Shown here piece after piece: positions 1,558-16,588 of a stretch of DNA of 16,588 bases. Position 1 is the first letter of the stretch; the number at the start of each line of letters is the position of its first letter. The DNA is from a virus (Duplodnaviria; Heunggongvirae; Uroviricota; Caudoviricetes). Below the pieces are notes generated by a model. It was not told the origin of the DNA. It made no database searches and saw nothing but the letters and a program-made list of their open reading frames with translations. Made by a program: the position numbers and the translations under genes. The stretch lies in the IMG/VR virus record IMGVR_UViG_2529293142_000008. One strand, written 5' to 3'.

Positions 1558-1908
1558 ATGACGAGCAAAGAAACCTTTACCCATTACCAGCCGCTGGGCA
1601 ACAGTGACCCGGCTCATACCGCAACCGCGCCCGGCGGATTGAGTGCGAAAGCGCCTGCAATGACCCCGCTGATGCTGGACACCTCCACCCGTAAGCTGGT
1701 TGCGTGGGATGGCACCACCGACGGTGCTGCCGTTGGCATTCTTGCGGTTGCTGCTGACCAGACCAGCACCACGCTGACGTTCTACAAGTCCGGCACGTTC
1801 CGTTATGAGGATGTGCTCTGGCCGGAGGCTGCCAGCGATGAGACGAAAAACGGACCGCGTTTGCCGGAACGGCAATCAGCATCGTTTAACCTTACCCTTC
1901 ATCACTAA
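1558..1908 (+). CDS. D: head decoration protein D, C-terminus altered by an apparent 1-nt deletion in an A-run
   Basis: ATG 1558 ([12 protein letters not shown]...). After the A5 run at 1846-1850 the +1 frame encodes [13 protein letters not shown] then TAA at 1887-1889, which would give the canonical 110-aa gpD. The observed frame instead reads [19 protein letters not shown] and stops at 1906-1908. Confidence 0.8.
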
Positions 1909-1944: not shown

Positions 1945-2969
1945 ATGTCGATGTACACAACCGCCCAGCTGCTGGCGGCAAATGAGCAGAAATTTAAGTT
2001 TGATCCGCTGTTTCTGCGTCTCTTTTTCCGTGAGAGCTATCCCTTCACTACGGAGAAAGTCTATCTCTCACAAATTCCGGGACTGGTAAACATGGCGCTG
2101 TACGTTTCGCCGATTGTTTCCGGTGAGGTTATCCGCTCCCGTGGCGGCTCCACCTCTGAATTTACGCCGGGATATGTCAAACCCAAGCATGAAGTGAATC
2201 CGCAGATGACCCTGCGTCGCCTGCCGGATGAAGATCCACAGAATCTGGCGGACCCGGCTTACCGCCGCCGTCGCATCATCCTGCAGAACATGCGAGACGA
2301 AGAGCTGGCCATTGCTCAGGTCGAAGAGATGCAGGCCGTTTCTGCCGTGCTTAAGGGCAAATATACCATGACCGGTGAAGCCTTCGATCCGGTTGAAGTG
2401 GATATGGGCCGCAGTGCGGCGAATAACATCACGCAGTCCGGCGGCACGCAGTGGAGCCAGCGTGACAAGTCCACGTATGACCCGACCGACGATATCGAAG
2501 CCTACGCGCTGAACGCCAGCGGTGTGGTGAATATCATCGTGTTTGATCCGAAAGGCTGGGCGCTGTTCCGTTCCTTCAAAGCCGTCAGGGATAAGCTGGA
2601 TACCCGTCGCGGCTCTCATTCCGAGCTGGAGACAGCGGTAAAAGCCTGGGCAAAGCGGTGTCCTATAAGGGAATGTATGGCGATGTGGCCATCGTCGTGT
2701 ATTCCGGACAGTACGTGGAAAACGACGTCAAAAAGAACTTCCTTCCGGACAACACGATGGTGCTGGGGAACACTCAGGCACGCGGTCTGCGCACCTATGG
2801 CTGCATTCAGGATGCGGACGCACAGCGCGAAGGTATTAACGCCTCTGCCCGCTACCCGAAAAACTGGGTGACCACCGGCGATCCGGCGCGTGAGTTCACC
2901 ATGATTCAGTCAGCACCGCTGATGCTGCTGGCTGACCCTGATGCATTCGTGTCTGTACAACTGGCGTAA
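1945..2969 (+). pseudogene. E: major capsid protein E, frame interrupted by a 1-nt deletion near 2644-2645
   Basis: ATG 1945 (MSMYTTAQLLAANEQKFKFDPLF...). The N-terminal ORF runs to 2871 with an aberrant tail. The E C-terminus (SYKGMYGDVAIVVYSGQYVEN...FVSVQLA) is in the +1 frame as ORF 2658..2969. The span is 1025 nt against 1026 nt for 341 aa plus stop. Confidence 0.85.
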
Positions 2970-3420: not shown

Positions 3421-3795
3421 GTGGCTGATTTCGATAACCTGTTCGATGCTGCCATTGCCTGCGCCGATGAAACGATACGCGGGTACATGGGAACGTCAGC
3501 CACCATGACATCCGGTGAGCAGTCCGGTGCGGTGATACGTGGTGTTTTTGATGACCCTGAGAATATCAGCTATGCCGGACAGGGCGTGCGCGTTGAAGGC
3601 TCCAGCCCGTCCCTGTTTGTCCGGACTGATGATGTGCGGCAGCTGCGGCGCGGCGACACGCTGACCATCGGTGAGGAAAACTTCTGGATAGACCGGATTT
3701 CGCCGGATGATGGCGGAAGTTGTCATCTCTGGCTTGGCGGGGGGGGACCGCCTGCCGTTAACCGTCGTCGCTTGAAAGGGGGGGTATGGCCATAA
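3421..3795 (+). CDS. FII: head-tail connector protein FII, apparent stop-codon loss extending it 7 codons into Z
   Basis: GTG 3421 preceded by GGGAGG (3411-3416). The first 117 codons end in ...PPAVNRRR at 3771, the canonical gpFII length. Codon 118 is TTG (3772-3774) where a stop is expected, and the ORF reads LKGGVWP to TAA at 3793-3795. Confidence 0.8.
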   Translation: MADFDNLFDAAIACADETIRGYMGTSATMTSGEQSGAVIRGVFDDPENISYAGQGVRVEGSSPSLFVRTDDVRQLRRGDTLTIGEENFWIDRISPDDGGSCHLWLGGGGPPAVNRRRLKGGVWP

Positions 3796-4364
3796 AAGGT
3801 CTTGAGCAGGCCGTTGAAAACCTCAGCCGTATCAGCAAAACGGCGGTGCCCGGTGCCGCCGCAATGGCCATTAACCGCGTTGCTTCATCCGCGATATCGC
3901 AGTCGGCGTCACAGGTTGCCCGTGAGACAAAGGTACGCCGGAAACTGGTAAAGGAAAGGGCCAGGCTGAAAAGGGCCACGGTCAAAAATCCGCAGGCCAG
4001 AATCAAGGTTAACCGGGGGGATTTGCCCGTAATCAAGCTGGGGAATGCGCGGGTTGTCCTGTCCCGACGCAGGCGTCGTAACAAGGGGCAGCGTTCATCC
4101 CTGAAAGGTGGCGGCAGCGTGCTTGTGGTGGGAAACCGTCGTATTCCCGGCGCGTTTATTCAGCAACTGAAAAATGGCCGGTGGCATGTCATGCAGCGTG
4201 TGGCCGGGAAAAACCGTTACCCCATTGATGTGGTGAAAATCCCGATGGCGGTGCCGCTGACCACGGCGTTTAAACAGAATATTGAACGGATACGGCGTGA
4301 ACGTTTGCCGAAAGAGCTGGGCTATGCGCTGCAGCATCAACTGAGAATGGTAATAAAGCGATGA
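3786..4364 (+). CDS. Z: tail assembly / tail completion protein Z
   Basis: ATG 3786 after a G-rich Shine-Dalgarno. Gives 192 aa, the lambda gpZ length, in the expected position. Confidence 0.9.
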   Translation: MAIKGLEQAVENLSRISKTAVPGAAAMAINRVASSAISQSASQVARETKVRRKLVKERARLKRATVKNPQARIKVNRGDLPVIKLGNARVVLSRRRRRNKGQRSSLKGGGSVLVVGNRRIPGAFIQQLKNGRWHVMQRVAGKNRYPIDVVKIPMAVPLTTAFKQNIERIRRERLPKELGYALQHQLRMVIKR

Positions 4365-4757
4365 AACATACTGAACTCCGTAGCAGCCGTACTGGATGCA
4401 CTGGAGAAGCATGACACCGGGGCGACGCTTTTTGATGGTCGCCCCGCTGTTTTTGATGAGGAAGATTTTCCGGCAGTTGCCGTTTATCTCACCGGCGCTG
4501 AATACACGGGCGAAGAGCTGGACAGCGATACCTGGCAGGCGGAGCTGCATATCGAAGTTTTCCTGCCTGCTCAGGTGCCGGATTCAGAGCTGGATGCGTG
4601 GATGGAGTCCCGGATTTATCCGGTGATGAGCGATATCCCGGCACTGTCAGAGTTGATCACCAGTATGGTGGCCAGTGGCTATGACTACCGACGCGACGAT
4701 GATGCGGGCCTGTGGAGTTCAGCCGATCTGACTTATGTCATTACCTATGAAATGTGA
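4361..4757 (+). pseudogene. U: tail terminator protein U, frame interrupted by a 1-nt insertion near 4382
   Basis: ATG 4361 (MKHTELR) runs into TGA at 4412-4414 after 17 codons. The rest of U (...[59 protein letters not shown]) is in the next frame and ends at 4757. The span is 397 nt against 396 nt for 131 aa plus stop. Confidence 0.85.
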
Positions 4758-4764
4758 GGACGCT

Positions 4765-5505
4765 ATGCCTGTACCAAATCCTGTAATGCCGGTGAAAGGT
4801 GCCGGGACCACCCTGTGGGTTTATAAGGGGAGCGGTGACCCTTATGCGAACCCGCTTTCAGACGTTGACTGGTCGCGTCTGGCAAAAGTTAAAGATCTGA
4901 CGCCCGGCGAACTGACCGCAGAGTCCTATGACGACAGCTATCTCGATGATGAAGATGCGGACTGGACTGCGACCGGGCAGGGGCAGAAATCAGCCGGAGA
5001 TACCAGCTTCACGCTGGCGTGGATGCCCGGAGAGCAGGGGCAGCAGGCGCTGCTGGCGTGGTTTAATGAAGGTGATACCCGTGCCTATAAAATCCGCTTC
5101 CCGAACGGCACGGTCGATGTGTTCCGTGGCTGGGTCAGCAGTATCGGTAAAGCGGTGACGGCGAAGGAAGTGATCACCCGCACGGTGAAGGTCACCAATG
5201 TGGGACGCCCGTCGATGGCAGAAGATCGCAGCACGGTCACAGCGGCAACCGGCATGACCGTGACGCCTGCCAGCACCTCGGTGGTGAAAGGGCAGAGCAC
5301 CACGCTGACCGTGGCATTCCAGCCGGAAGGCGCAACCGACAAGAGCTTCCGTGCGGTGTCTGCGGATAAAACAAAAGCCACCGTGTCGGTCAGTGGTATG
5401 ACCATCACCGTGAAAGGTGTTGCTGCAGGCAAGGTCAACATTCCGGTCGTATCCGGTAATGGTGAACTTGCTGCGGTTGCAGAAATCACTGTCACCGACA
5501 GTTAA
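4765..5505 (+). CDS. V: major tail tube protein V with C-terminal Ig-like domain
   Basis: ATG 4765 preceded by GTGAGGA. Gives 246 aa ([22 protein letters not shown]...), intact. The C-terminal Thr/Val-rich beta-rich segment fits the known Ig-like domain of gpV. Confidence 0.92.
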
Positions 5506-5520
5506 TCCGGAGAGTCAGCG

Positions 5521-5943
5521 ATGTTCCTGAAAACCGAATCATTTGAACATAACGGCGTGACCGTCACGCTTTCTGAACTTTCAGCCCTGCAGCGTATTGA
5601 GCATCTCGCCCTGATGAAACGGCAGGCAGAACAGGCGGAGTCAGACAGCAACCGGAAGTTTACAGTGGAAGACGCCATCAGAACCGGTGCTTTTGTGGTG
5701 GCGATGTCCCTGTGGCATAACCATCCGCAGAAGACAAAGCAGCCTTCCATGAATGAAGCCGTTAAACAGATTGAGCAGGAAGTGCTTACCACCTGGCCCA
5801 CAGAGGCAATTTCTCATGCTGAAAACGTGGTGTACCGGCTGTCCGGTATGTATGAGTTTGTGGTGAATGATGCCCCTGAACAGGCAGAGGACGCCGGGCC
5901 TGCAGAGCCTGTTTCTGCGGGAAAGTGTTCGACGGTGAGCTGA
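5521..5943 (+). CDS. G: tail assembly chaperone G
   Basis: ATG 5521, 140 aa, ends in ...SAGKCSTVS. The slippery heptamer lies 6 codons before its stop. Confidence 0.9.
   Translation: MFLKTESFEHNGVTVTLSELSALQRIEHLALMKRQAEQAESDSNRKFTVEDAIRTGAFVVAMSLWHNHPQKTKQPSMNEAVKQIEQEVLTTWPTEAISHAENVVYRLSGMYEFVVNDAPEQAEDAGPAEPVSAGKCSTVS
5919..5925 (+). other. programmed -1 ribosomal frameshift slippery heptamer GGGAAAG (G to G-T)
   Basis: Heptamer G GGA AAG read directly in the G frame near the 3' end of G. It is the known lambda G-T slip site. Confidence 0.8.
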
Positions 5944-6358
5944 GTTTTGCCCTGAAACTGGCGCGCGAGATGGGGCGACCCGACTGGCGCGCCATGCTTG
6001 CCGGGATGTCATCCACGGAGTATGCCGACTGGCACCGCTTTTACAGTACCCATTATTTCATGATGTTCTGCTGGATATGCACTTTTCCGGGCTGACGTAC
6101 ACCGTGCTCAGCCTGTTTTTCAGCGATCCGGATATACATCCGCTGGATTTCAGTCTGCTGAACCGGCGTGAGGCTGACGAAGAGCCTGAAGATGATGTGC
6201 TGATGCAGAAAGCGGCAGGGCTTGCCGGAGGCGTCCGCTTTGGCCCGGACGGGAATGAAGTTATCCCCGCTTCCCCGGATGTGGCGGACATGACGGAGGA
6301 TGACGTAATGCTGATGACAGTATCAGAAGGGATCGCAGGAGGAGTCCGGTATGGCTGA
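5919..6358 (+). pseudogene. T: tail assembly chaperone T (G-T frameshift extension), interrupted by a 1-nt deletion in a T-run near 6056-6058
   Basis: The -1 frame from the slip site reads VFDGELSFALKLAREMGRPDWRAMLAGMSSTEYADWHRFYSTHY and then hits TGA at 6093-6095. The rest of T (HFSGLTYTVLSLFFSDPD...IAGGVRYG) is in another frame (ORF 6077..6358), overlapping the H start as expected. Confidence 0.75.
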
Positions 6359-15460: not shown

Positions 15461-16588
15461 ATGGCAGTAAAGATTTCAGGTGTACTGAAAGACGGCACAG
15501 GAAAACCGGTAGAGAACTGCACCATTCAACTGAAAGCCAGACGGACCAGCAGCACGGTGGTGGTGAACACGGTGGCCTCTGAAAATCCGGATGAAGCCGG
15601 TCGTTACAGCATGGACGTTGAGTACGGTCAGTACAGCGTCATTCTGTTGGTGGAAGGATTCCCGCCGTCACATGCCGGGACCATCACCGTGTATGAAGAT
15701 TCTCAACCCGGTACGCTGAATGATTTTCTCGGTGCCATGTCGGAGGATGACGTCCGGCCGGAGGCACTGCGTCGTTTTGAACTGATGGTGGAAGAAGCGG
15801 CGCGTCACGCTGAGGAGGCGAAGAAGAATGCCGGAGAGGCGGAGACGTCCGCGAGGAATGCTGGCATATCAGCCAGTCAGGCAGAAGAGAGCGCTGCAAA
15901 TGCTGACACTTCAGCAGGGGATGCATCGGAGTCAGCCCGACAGGCGGCAGAAAGTGCAGCCTCTGCAAAGCAGTCAGAGGAAGCGTCCTCGTCCTCGGCC
16001 TCTGAGGCCGCTCAAAAAGCCAGTGAGTCATTACAAAGTGCAACAGATGCTGAGTTGTCAAAAAAGATGGCAGAAAGTGCAGCCGGTAATGCAGCCAGGG
16101 ATGCAACGACCGCAACAGAAAAAGCCCGGGAGTCAGCAGAAAGCGCACAGTCAGCGGAACAAAGCAGGATAGCGGCGGAAGAGGCCGTAAACCGAATCCC
16201 CACCGTGGTGGGACCTCCCGGGCCAAAGGGGGAACAGGGGCCCGCGGGTCCTCAGGGGCCGAAGGGTGATAAGGGAGAGCGCGGTGACACCGGCCCTGTC
16301 GGGGCAACCGGCGAACGGGGACCGGCAGGTGATGCTGGTCCGGCAGGCCCGCAGGGGCCGAAAGGCGACAGGGGAGAGCGGGGAGAGACCGGTCTGACGG
16401 GAAATGCAGGTCCACAGGGTCCAAAGGGAGATACCGGTGCGGCAGGCCCGGCAGGCCCACAGGGACCGAAAGGAGAAACAGGTGCGGCTGGCCCGGTGGG
16501 GGCAACCGGACCTCAGGGACCGAAGGGCGACCCGGGGGAGACACAAATCCGTTTTCGTCTGGGGCCGGCGAGCATTATTGAGACAAAC
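15461..16588 (+). CDS. stf: side tail fibre protein, N-terminal portion (3' end outside window), with collagen-like region
   Basis: ATG 15461 (MAVKISGVLKDGTGKPVENCTIQLKARRTSSTVVVNTVASENPDEAGRYSMDVEYGQYSV...). Open frame with no stop to the window end, which is why the ORF track omits it. The N-terminus matches the lambda Stf (orf-401) N-terminal domain as I remember it. Confidence 0.85.
   Translation, partial: MAVKISGVLKDGTGKPVENCTIQLKARRTSSTVVVNTVASENPDEAGRYSMDVEYGQYSVILLVEGFPPSHAGTITVYEDSQPGTLNDFLGAMSEDDVRPEALRRFELMVEEAARHAEEAKKNAGEAETSARNAGISASQAEESAANADTSAGDASESARQAAESAASAKQSEEASSSSASEAAQKASESLQSATDAELSKKMAESAAGNAARDATTATEKARESAESAQSAEQSRIAAEEAVNRIPTVVGPPGPKGEQGPAGPQGPKGDKGERGDTGPVGATGERGPAGDAGPAGPQGPKGDRGERGETGLTGNAGPQGPKGDTGAAGPAGPQGPKGETGAAGPVGATGPQGPKGDPGETQIRFRLGPASIIETN
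16211..16543 (+). repeat. collagen-like Gly-X-Y triplet repeat, 37 uninterrupted triplets, within stf
   Basis: Translation in the stf frame gives GPPGPKGEQGPAGPQGPKGDKGERGDTGPVGATGERGPAGDAGPAGPQGPKGDRGERGETGLTGNAGPQGPKGDTGAAGPAGPQGPKGETGAAGPVGATGPQGPKGDPGET. The unit GPQGPKG recurs five times. Confidence 0.88.

What the first reader, a model, noticed from the sequence alone, without database searches (positions are those of the whole stretch)
5919..6358. G-T programmed frameshift site is conserved, but the T extension is broken by a 1-nt deletion in a T-run
The slippery heptamer GGGAAAG (5919-5925) sits at the known position near the end of G. The -1 frame then runs for about 57 codons into TGA at 6093-6095, while the rest of T is in another frame (ORF 6077..6358). 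The break is at a T3 run (6056-6058) where lambda, as I remember it, has T4. The G-T fusion is required for tail assembly on the tape measure protein.
Basis: partly seen in the sequence, partly recalled or inferred. Interest (0 to 1): 0.6.

Follow-up and report, generated by a model that had tools for sequence, protein, structure and literature searches.

The report
Broken lambda tail chaperone gene T
This is the textbook lambda G-T tail-chaperone frameshift site, intact, followed by a T reading frame broken by a one-base deletion; it is one of four frameshifts in this prophage-like head-tail module, so it is an ordinary dead gene (or a sequence error), not a new mechanism.

Summary
GGGAAAG lies at 5919-5925 in the register G GGA AAG, six codons before the G stop. 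The -1 frame stops at TGA 6093-6095. The rest of T lies in a third frame (ORF 6077-6358). The only difference from lambda and other relatives here is T3 (6056-6058) instead of T4.

The T3 allele appears nowhere else: 0 of 134 panel loci, and no hit in 5,426 complete E. coli genomes, 50,697 phage records, IMG/VR, JGI metagenomes or GTDB representatives. The T4 form is everywhere. Adding one T restores a 279-aa gpGT with Phage_TAC_2 and Phage_tail_T domains. As written, the 191-aa product has no T domain.

D (A6 to A5, about 1846), the major capsid gene E (deletion at 2644/2645) and U (insertion at 4382) are also frameshifted. The E and U changes are also unique to this window.

All 62 other homopolymers of 5 nt or more have the consensus length, which argues against homopolymer-type sequencing error.

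Most likely this is a defective lambda-like prophage decaying by mutation (about 0.6). Residual sequence error is the main rival (about 0.3). Interest is low.

The parts
5521..5943 (+). Gene G, tail assembly chaperone, 140 aa, intact
   Evidence: ORF and translation. Pfam Phage_TAC_2 covers residues 1-125, E = 1e-58. The exact protein is very common in public assemblies.
5919..5925 (+). Slippery heptamer GGGAAAG, read as G GGA AAG in the G frame; site of the programmed -1 shift
   Evidence: Sequence. Identical in lambda. GGGAAAG is present at the homologous site in 135 of 136 related loci. Lambda slippery sequence is given in PMC3296357, Table 1.
5925..6095 (+). N-terminal part of T in the -1 frame: 45 native T residues, then 11 out-of-frame residues (MMFCWICTFPG) and a premature TGA at 6093-6095
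   Evidence: Translation.
6056..6058 (+). T3 run, the site of the one-base deletion (T4 in all relatives)
   Evidence: Alignments. 0 of 134 panel loci share T3. No seed hit in complete E. coli genomes or phage records. The exact 38-mer is absent from three contig collections, while the T4 38-mer gave at least 120 hits in viral contigs.
6059..6358 (+). C-terminal 99 codons of T, now out of frame with the N-terminal part (listed as ORF 6077-6358); carries a private M-to-I substitution at 6136
   Evidence: Pfam Phage_tail_T matches only partially and below the cut-off. Private substitution.
6351..8912 (+). Gene H, tape measure protein, 853 aa, intact; its start overlaps the canonical T stop
   Evidence: ORF. 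Same layout as annotated relatives.
1558..1908 (+). Context: gene D (head decoration) with A6 to A5 at 1846-1850, giving a 116-aa protein with an altered C-terminus
   Evidence: The same allele is in 22 complete E. coli genomes and the exact protein is on record in 27 blocks.
1945..2969 (+). Context: gene E (major capsid protein) broken by a one-base deletion between 2644 and 2645
   Evidence: 0 of 84 loci share it; no hit in E. coli genomes.
4361..4757 (+). Context: gene U (tail terminator) broken by a one-base insertion (A) at 4382, after codon 7
   Evidence: 0 of 106 loci share it; no hit in E. coli genomes.

Best explanation
The window is the head-tail morphogenesis module of a lambda-like (Lambdavirus/Jouyvirus-type) temperate phage, most likely a prophage. 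It carries the canonical lambda G/GT tail-assembly-chaperone unit.

Normal mechanism, from the literature: most ribosomes finish gpG. About 4% slip -1 on G GGA AAG and continue into T to make gpGT. The G part binds the tape measure protein gpH, and the T part recruits the major tail protein gpV.

Here the slippery site and G are intact. A one-base deletion (T4 to T3 at 6056-6058) throws the T frame off 45 codons into T. The frameshift product is therefore a 191-aa gpG with a short junk tail and no T domain. It cannot link gpV to gpH, so tail tubes should not be nucleated.

Shown: the anatomy, the uniqueness of the lesion, the loss of the T domain, and restoration by adding one base.

Inferred: the lesion is a real mutation. 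It appears to be one of several inactivating frameshifts (D, E, U, T) accumulating in a defective prophage whose morphogenesis genes are no longer under selection. T is thus a recent pseudogene rather than a new recoding arrangement.
For: Anatomy and repair:
- The anatomy is confirmed.
- One added T gives a 279-aa GT with Phage_TAC_2 (1-125) and Phage_tail_T (164-239). The product as written keeps only Phage_TAC_2.

Uniqueness and conservation:
- T3 was not found anywhere else.
- Full-length T is the rule: 139 of 145 relatives have a 146-codon -1 frame.

Other broken genes:
- Three more frameshifts lie in essential morphogenesis genes of the same window.
- The D lesion is a genuine natural allele. 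It is in 22 complete E. coli genomes and in 27 collection blocks from independent assemblies.
- All six D* loci fetched also carry other broken phage genes (terminase, Z, H or L). This is what a decaying prophage family looks like.
- Other T lesions exist in relatives, 5 of 145.

Sequence quality:
- 62 of 63 homopolymers of 5 nt or more, including T7, T7, A7 and G7, have the consensus length. The single exception is the natural D allele.
- Two of the four indels are not in homopolymers.

Mechanism of G/GT: PMC5009743 and PMC3296357.
Against: - No reads are available, so a sequencing or assembly error cannot be excluded.
- Private substitutions are few and mostly synonymous: 24 synonymous to 14 non-synonymous overall, and 7 to 5 in the well-covered first 11 kb. 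The module was therefore under purifying selection until very recently.
- Three private indels against 12 or fewer private substitutions in that 11 kb is a higher indel-to-substitution ratio than the roughly 1:10 expected from neutral mutation in E. coli (my own knowledge of mutation-accumulation data). That pattern fits indel-type error as well as very recent decay.
- No IS element, large deletion or nonsense mutation accompanies the frameshifts in the 16.6 kb.
- The source genome could not be found. The exact H and J proteins are not on record, so the host and prophage status are inferred.
Confidence: 0.62

Rival explanations
1. Sequencing or assembly artefact: the real DNA has T4 and an intact T. 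The E and U frameshifts would likewise be base-calling or consensus errors.
For: - T3, the E deletion and the U insertion are each unique to this window among thousands of related sequences.
- The indel-to-substitution ratio on the private branch is high, and the private substitutions look selected, being mostly synonymous.
- The flanking G-T region is 99.7% identical to many E. coli prophages, differing by two substitutions plus this gap.
Against: - There is no homopolymer-error signature. All other 62 runs of 5 nt or more, including four runs of 7 nt, have the consensus length where this could be tested. The hit here is a run of only 4, and two of the other indels are at non-repeat sites.
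- The D frameshift is a verified natural allele.
- By contrast, an error-ridden relative (L180) shows 7 indels in 470 nt.
Confidence: 0.3
2. Compensated recoding: after the normal -1 shift at GGGAAAG, a second -1 slip of tRNA-Phe from UUC to UUU at U UUC (6055-6059) would read ...Y F H D V... and regenerate the exact wild-type gpGT. On this reading T would still be expressed at a very low level.
For: - The sequence allows it. TAT TTC ATG re-read as TAT TT(T) CAT gives the wild-type peptide.
- Low-level compensatory frameshifting at indels is a known phenomenon (PMC5009743).
- The downstream T frame is still open to the canonical stop, with only one private amino-acid change.
Against: - T TAT TTC is not an X XXY YYZ heptamer, and the P-site tRNA-Tyr cannot re-pair.
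- No stimulatory element is known or was looked for.
- Unstimulated slippage is below about 5e-5 per codon (PMC3296357). Multiplied by the roughly 4% first shift, the yield would be far below the 1:30 GT:G ratio that tail assembly needs (PMC5009743).
- No relative has this arrangement.
- E and U are broken as well, so T expression would serve no particle.
Confidence: 0.03
3. A functional shorter T variant: the 191-aa product, or a separately initiated 93-aa C-terminal fragment from ATG 6077, would be a working alternative chaperone.
For: ORF 6077-6358 begins with an ATG that lies 16 nt upstream of the premature stop, so termination-reinitiation is conceivable.
Against: - The 191-aa product has no Phage_tail_T match, and the 93-aa fragment scores below the Pfam cut-off.
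- There is no Shine-Dalgarno sequence before 6077.
- The arrangement is not found in any relative.
- The function described in the literature depends on the G and T parts being in one chain, linking gpH to gpV (PMC5009743).
Confidence: 0.02

Closest known systems
Bacteriophage lambda G / G-T tail assembly chaperone with programmed -1 ribosomal frameshift (Levin, Hendrix and Casjens 1993; Xu, Hendrix and Duda 2004, 2013, 2014, as cited in PMC5009743)
   Same: - Same gene order V-G-T-H.
- Same slippery heptamer GGGAAAG in the same register, six codons before the G stop.
- The DNA aligned around the slippery site and the break (window 5900-6110) differs from lambda at only four columns in 212, one of them the gap.
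- Same Pfam domains once repaired.
- T stop overlaps the H start.
   Different: One base is missing from the T4 run, so the -1 frame ends after 58 codons instead of 146 and the T domain is lost.
Defective (cryptic) lambdoid prophages of E. coli and Shigella, whose morphogenesis genes carry frameshifts, nonsense mutations and IS insertions (for example the O157 Sakai Sp prophages, Asadulghani et al. 2009, and Bobay et al. 2014; both cited from memory)
   Same: - Several independent inactivating one-base indels in essential head and tail genes (D, E, U, T).
- Relatives show other lesions: an IS66-family (ISCro1) element in C and an internal stop in K in the O26 prophage, and split terminase, Z, H and L genes in the D* loci.
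   Different: - No IS element or large deletion within this 16.6-kb window.
- The substitution pattern still looks selected, so any decay is very recent.
- Integration in a host chromosome is not shown, because the window holds phage genes only.

Membership tests
Lambda-type G/GT tail assembly chaperone with -1 PRF | Two overlapping ORFs located between the major tail protein gene and the tape measure gene | tested here: met
   V 4765-5505, G 5521-5943, T to 6358, H 6351-8912. The order is the same as in annotated relatives.
Lambda-type G/GT tail assembly chaperone with -1 PRF | Upstream ORF encodes a gpG-type chaperone (Phage_TAC_2) | tested here: met
   Pfam PF06894, residues 1-125, E = 1e-58.
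Lambda-type G/GT tail assembly chaperone with -1 PRF | [quoted passage not shown] | tested here: met
   G GGA AAG at 5919-5925, six codons before the stop. Conserved in 135 of 136 relatives.
Lambda-type G/GT tail assembly chaperone with -1 PRF | The -1 frame stays open for about 144 more codons and encodes the T domain (Phage_tail_T), ending at the start of the tape measure gene | tested here: not met
   The -1 frame ends after 58 codons at TGA 6093-6095, and there is no PF06223 match in the product. The feature is met only after one T is inserted at 6056-6058.
Lambda-type G/GT tail assembly chaperone with -1 PRF | About 4% frameshifting giving a G:GT ratio of about 30:1, with both products required for tail assembly | not testable with these tools
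   Known for lambda (PMC3296357, PMC5009743). Testing it here needs expression experiments.
Defective prophage (pseudogenised morphogenesis module) | Several independent inactivating lesions in essential phage genes | tested here: met
   Frameshifts in D, E, U and T relative to all relatives.
Defective prophage (pseudogenised morphogenesis module) | Signature of relaxed selection (private substitutions with dN/dS near 1) | tested here: inconclusive
   Private substitutions are 24 synonymous to 14 non-synonymous. That is still biased towards synonymous changes. The numbers are small and the panel is thin over J.
Defective prophage (pseudogenised morphogenesis module) | Integrated in a bacterial chromosome and unable to produce particles | not testable with these tools
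   The window holds only phage genes, and the source record was not found in any collection.

The most novel reading that the evidence does not exclude
The T3 allele is tolerated because a second, low-level -1 slip of tRNA-Phe on U UUC (6055-6059) restores the authentic T frame. On this reading gpGT would be made by two successive -1 shifts, a 'savior indel' that sharply lowers GT dosage.
Probability: 0.02. Interest if true: 0.5.

Novelty: already known. Interest (0 to 1): 0.1.

Why it matters
It matters little beyond annotation. The G-T frameshift is textbook. A T gene broken by a one-base deletion, in a module where D, E and U are also frameshifted, should be annotated as a pseudogene in a defective prophage, or corrected if reads show an error. 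The practical consequence is a prediction: this element cannot make tails or capsids by itself. It should therefore not be counted as an inducible, transducing phage.

Tried and rejected
- Finding the source record. Exact-protein look-ups found nothing for the 93-aa T fragment, J, H or the truncated E. The G protein is too common to help. Whole-window BLAST gave at best 96.6-96.7% identity in E. coli genomes and phages. A J-based scan of GTDB representative genomes gave no closer relative, 95% DNA identity or less over J. The host therefore remains unknown.\n- Finding the T3 allele elsewhere. The exact 38-mer is absent from genome, viral and metagenome contigs. An 81-nt BLAST had as its best result a single-gap match. 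A 41-nt seed-only BLAST found nothing.\n- Shared descent of the D lesion. I tested whether the D A5 allele marks a lineage shared with the window. It sits on at least three different D haplotypes, and the carrier prophages are only about 97% identical to the window. Shared descent is not shown, and recurrence at the A6 run is as likely.\n- Homopolymer-error hypothesis. I audited 63 runs and found no signature.\n- Solved structures. No PDB relative of G or GT was found by sequence, so the break was not mapped onto a structure.\n- Chance. The heptamer count alone is not significant; the argument rests on register and conservation.

Full report
**What the window is.** ORF listing and comparison with annotated relatives show the head-tail module of a lambda-like phage.
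- The gene order is: portal C-terminus (to 248), C/S49 protease (229-1548), D, E, FI, FII, Z, U, V (4765-5505), G (5521-5943), T (to 6358), H (6351-8912), M, L, K, I, J (11314-14727), lom (14797-15396) and the start of stf (15461 onwards).
- The best whole-window matches are only 96.6-96.7% identical: E. coli A25 prophage and lambda h434 imm21.
- The G-T region alone is 99.7% identical to prophages in many EHEC genomes.

**Checking the observation.**
- GGGAAAG occupies 5919-5925 and is read in the G frame as G GGA AAG, six codons before the G stop.
- The -1 frame from 5919 gives GK plus 56 residues, then TGA at 6093-6095.
- The remaining T sequence is open in the third frame, listed as ORF 6077-6358. 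It ends at the normal T stop inside ATGGCTGA, which also holds the H start.
- Alignment with lambda NC_001416 and two E. coli prophages shows one gap in 212 columns: CATTA-TTTCATG in the window against CATTATTTTCATG.
- There is no compensating indel between 5400 and 6500.
- The heptamer alone is not beyond chance: 2 found, 2.3 expected. At the homologous site it is GGGAAAG in 135 of 136 related loci.
- The -1 frame is 146 codons long in 139 of 145 relatives, against 58 here.

**How unusual the T3 allele is.**
- Every phage and E. coli hit to 5400-6500 spans 1102 bases against the window's 1101.
- An 81-nt query centred on the run hit 3,495 records (4,174 places). None was identical; the best was 81/82 with a single gap.
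- I then used a 41-nt query, which can only seed megablast if the T3 junction is present. It found nothing in 5,426 complete E. coli genomes or in 50,697 phage records.
- The exact T3 38-mer is absent from GTDB representative genomes, IMG/VR and JGI metagenome contigs.
- In a local panel, 134 of 134 aligned loci have T4.

**Consequence for the protein.**
- Adding one T gives a 279-aa GT: 135 residues through the slip site plus 144 of T. It carries Pfam Phage_TAC_2 (1-125) and Phage_tail_T (164-239).
- The product as encoded is 191 aa with only Phage_TAC_2.
- The detached 93-aa ORF scores below the Pfam cut-off.
[quoted passage not shown] The G:GT ratio of about 30:1, set by about 4% frameshifting, is needed for tail assembly (PMC5009743, PMC3296357).
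- A GT without its T domain should therefore behave as extra gpG and fail to nucleate the tail tube. This last step is inference.

Alignment of the whole window to three relatives shows three more single-base frameshifts.
- Gene D: A6 to A5 at 1846-1850. The last residues of the head decoration protein are replaced.
- Gene E: a deleted A between 2644 and 2645. The major capsid protein breaks at about residue 233 of 341.
- Gene U: an inserted A at 4382. The tail terminator breaks after codon 7.
- Translations confirm all three.
- In the panel, 0 of 84 loci share the E lesion and 0 of 106 share the U lesion. Seed-only BLAST finds neither in complete E. coli genomes.
- The D lesion is different. 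The same A5 allele is in 22 complete E. coli genomes, where it is annotated simply as head decoration protein. The exact 116-aa protein is on record in 27 collection blocks from independent assemblies. It sits on at least three D haplotypes.
- All six D* loci fetched also have other broken phage genes: split terminase, Z, H or L.

**Real mutation or sequence error?** This cannot be settled without reads. I looked for indirect signs.

For a real mutation:
- Of 63 homopolymer runs of 5 nt or more in the window, every run with testable flanks has the consensus length. These include two T7 runs, an A7 and a G7. The only exception is the natural D allele.
- Two of the four indels are not in repeats.
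- At least one of the four lesions is a proven natural allele.
- Other T lesions occur in relatives, 5 of 145.
- A truly error-ridden relative looks quite different: 7 indels in 470 nt in L180.

For an artefact, or for very recent events:
- Private substitutions are few and mostly synonymous: 24 to 14 overall, and 7 to 5 in the well-covered first 11 kb. The module shows no long neutral decay.
- Three private indels against 12 or fewer private substitutions is more than the roughly 1:10 ratio expected from neutral mutation (my own knowledge).

I put a real lesion in a defective prophage at about 0.6 and an artefact at about 0.3.

**Other readings considered.**
- A second -1 slip of tRNA-Phe from UUC to UUU at 6055-6059 would regenerate the exact wild-type peptide (…YFHDV…). 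However, the site is not a tandem slippery heptamer and no relative has it. Unstimulated slippage, below about 5e-5 per codon (PMC3296357), on top of a 4% first shift would give far too little GT. With E and U broken there is also no particle to serve.
- A functional short T, or a reinitiated 93-aa fragment, is not supported by domain content, by any Shine-Dalgarno sequence or by conservation.

**Comparison with what is known, and verdict.** This is the lambda G/GT unit. Every defining feature is met except the open T frame, which fails by one base. It should be filed as a pseudogenised member of a textbook system inside a module with four frameshifts. Nothing here is new in kind, and interest is low. 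The source genome could not be identified, so host and prophage status are inferred.

Noticed in passing
window 1558-1908 (A5 run at 1846-1850): Head decoration gene D has A5 where most relatives have A6. This gives a 116-aa protein with a different, longer C-terminus. The same allele is in 22 of 5,426 complete E. coli genomes, where it is annotated as a normal head decoration protein. It occurs on at least three D haplotypes, so it is a recurrent or spreading natural variant. Whether it is functional is unknown.
   Followed up: partly
window 1945-2969 (deletion between 2644 and 2645): Major capsid gene E is frameshifted by loss of one A (AAAAG[A]CCTGG), at about residue 233 of 341. The lesion is private to this window: 0 of 84 panel loci share it and there is no hit in E. 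coli genomes.
   Followed up: yes
window 4361-4757 (insertion at 4382): Tail terminator gene U is frameshifted by one inserted A after codon 7 (CCGT[A]GCAGCC). The lesion is private to this window: 0 of 106 panel loci share it and there is no hit in E. coli genomes.
   Followed up: yes
window 6136: A private G-to-A substitution changes Met to Ile in the out-of-frame C-terminal part of T. All 135 aligned relatives have G.
   Followed up: no
window about 16150-16560 (stf, side tail fibre N-terminal part): The side tail fibre ORF contains a long collagen-like Gly-X-Y repeat (GPPGPKGEQGPAGPQGPKGDKGERGDTGP...). The ORF runs off the end of the window.
   Followed up: no
window 3739-3746 and 3778-3784 (end of FII): G8 and G7 runs sit at the end of FII. 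The window has the 124-aa FII form (3421-3795) that overlaps Z, as in the O26 prophage, rather than the 117-aa form. Relative to the 117-aa relatives it differs by a compensated pair of one-base indels at about 3773 and 3783.
   Followed up: partly
L143-L146, L150-L158 and others (genome-contig hits): Near-lambda J genes sit on short contigs of about 1x coverage in assemblies of unrelated organisms (Neobacillus, Desulfosporosinus, Shewanella, Pseudomonas, Kitasatospora, Bradyrhizobium and others). These look like lambda DNA contamination of those assemblies.
   Followed up: no
L072, L073, L081, L105, L180 (T region): Five of 145 relatives have a -1 frame of abnormal length through other lesions: loss of homology, a 2-nt deletion, or an alternative 3' end. 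L180 (Shigella flexneri SFBU0723) has 7 single-base indels in 470 nt, which looks like assembly error or heavy decay.
   Followed up: partly
L002 3125-7151 and 15544-16287 (E. coli O26:H11 11368 prophage): The closest G-T relative is itself defective. An IS66-family element (ISCro1) splits the C/S49 protease gene, and the K (C40 peptidase) gene is annotated with an internal stop.
   Followed up: no
window 10029-10035: A second GGGAAAG lies inside gene K. Two copies in the window match the chance expectation of 2.3, so no meaning is attached to it.
   Followed up: yes
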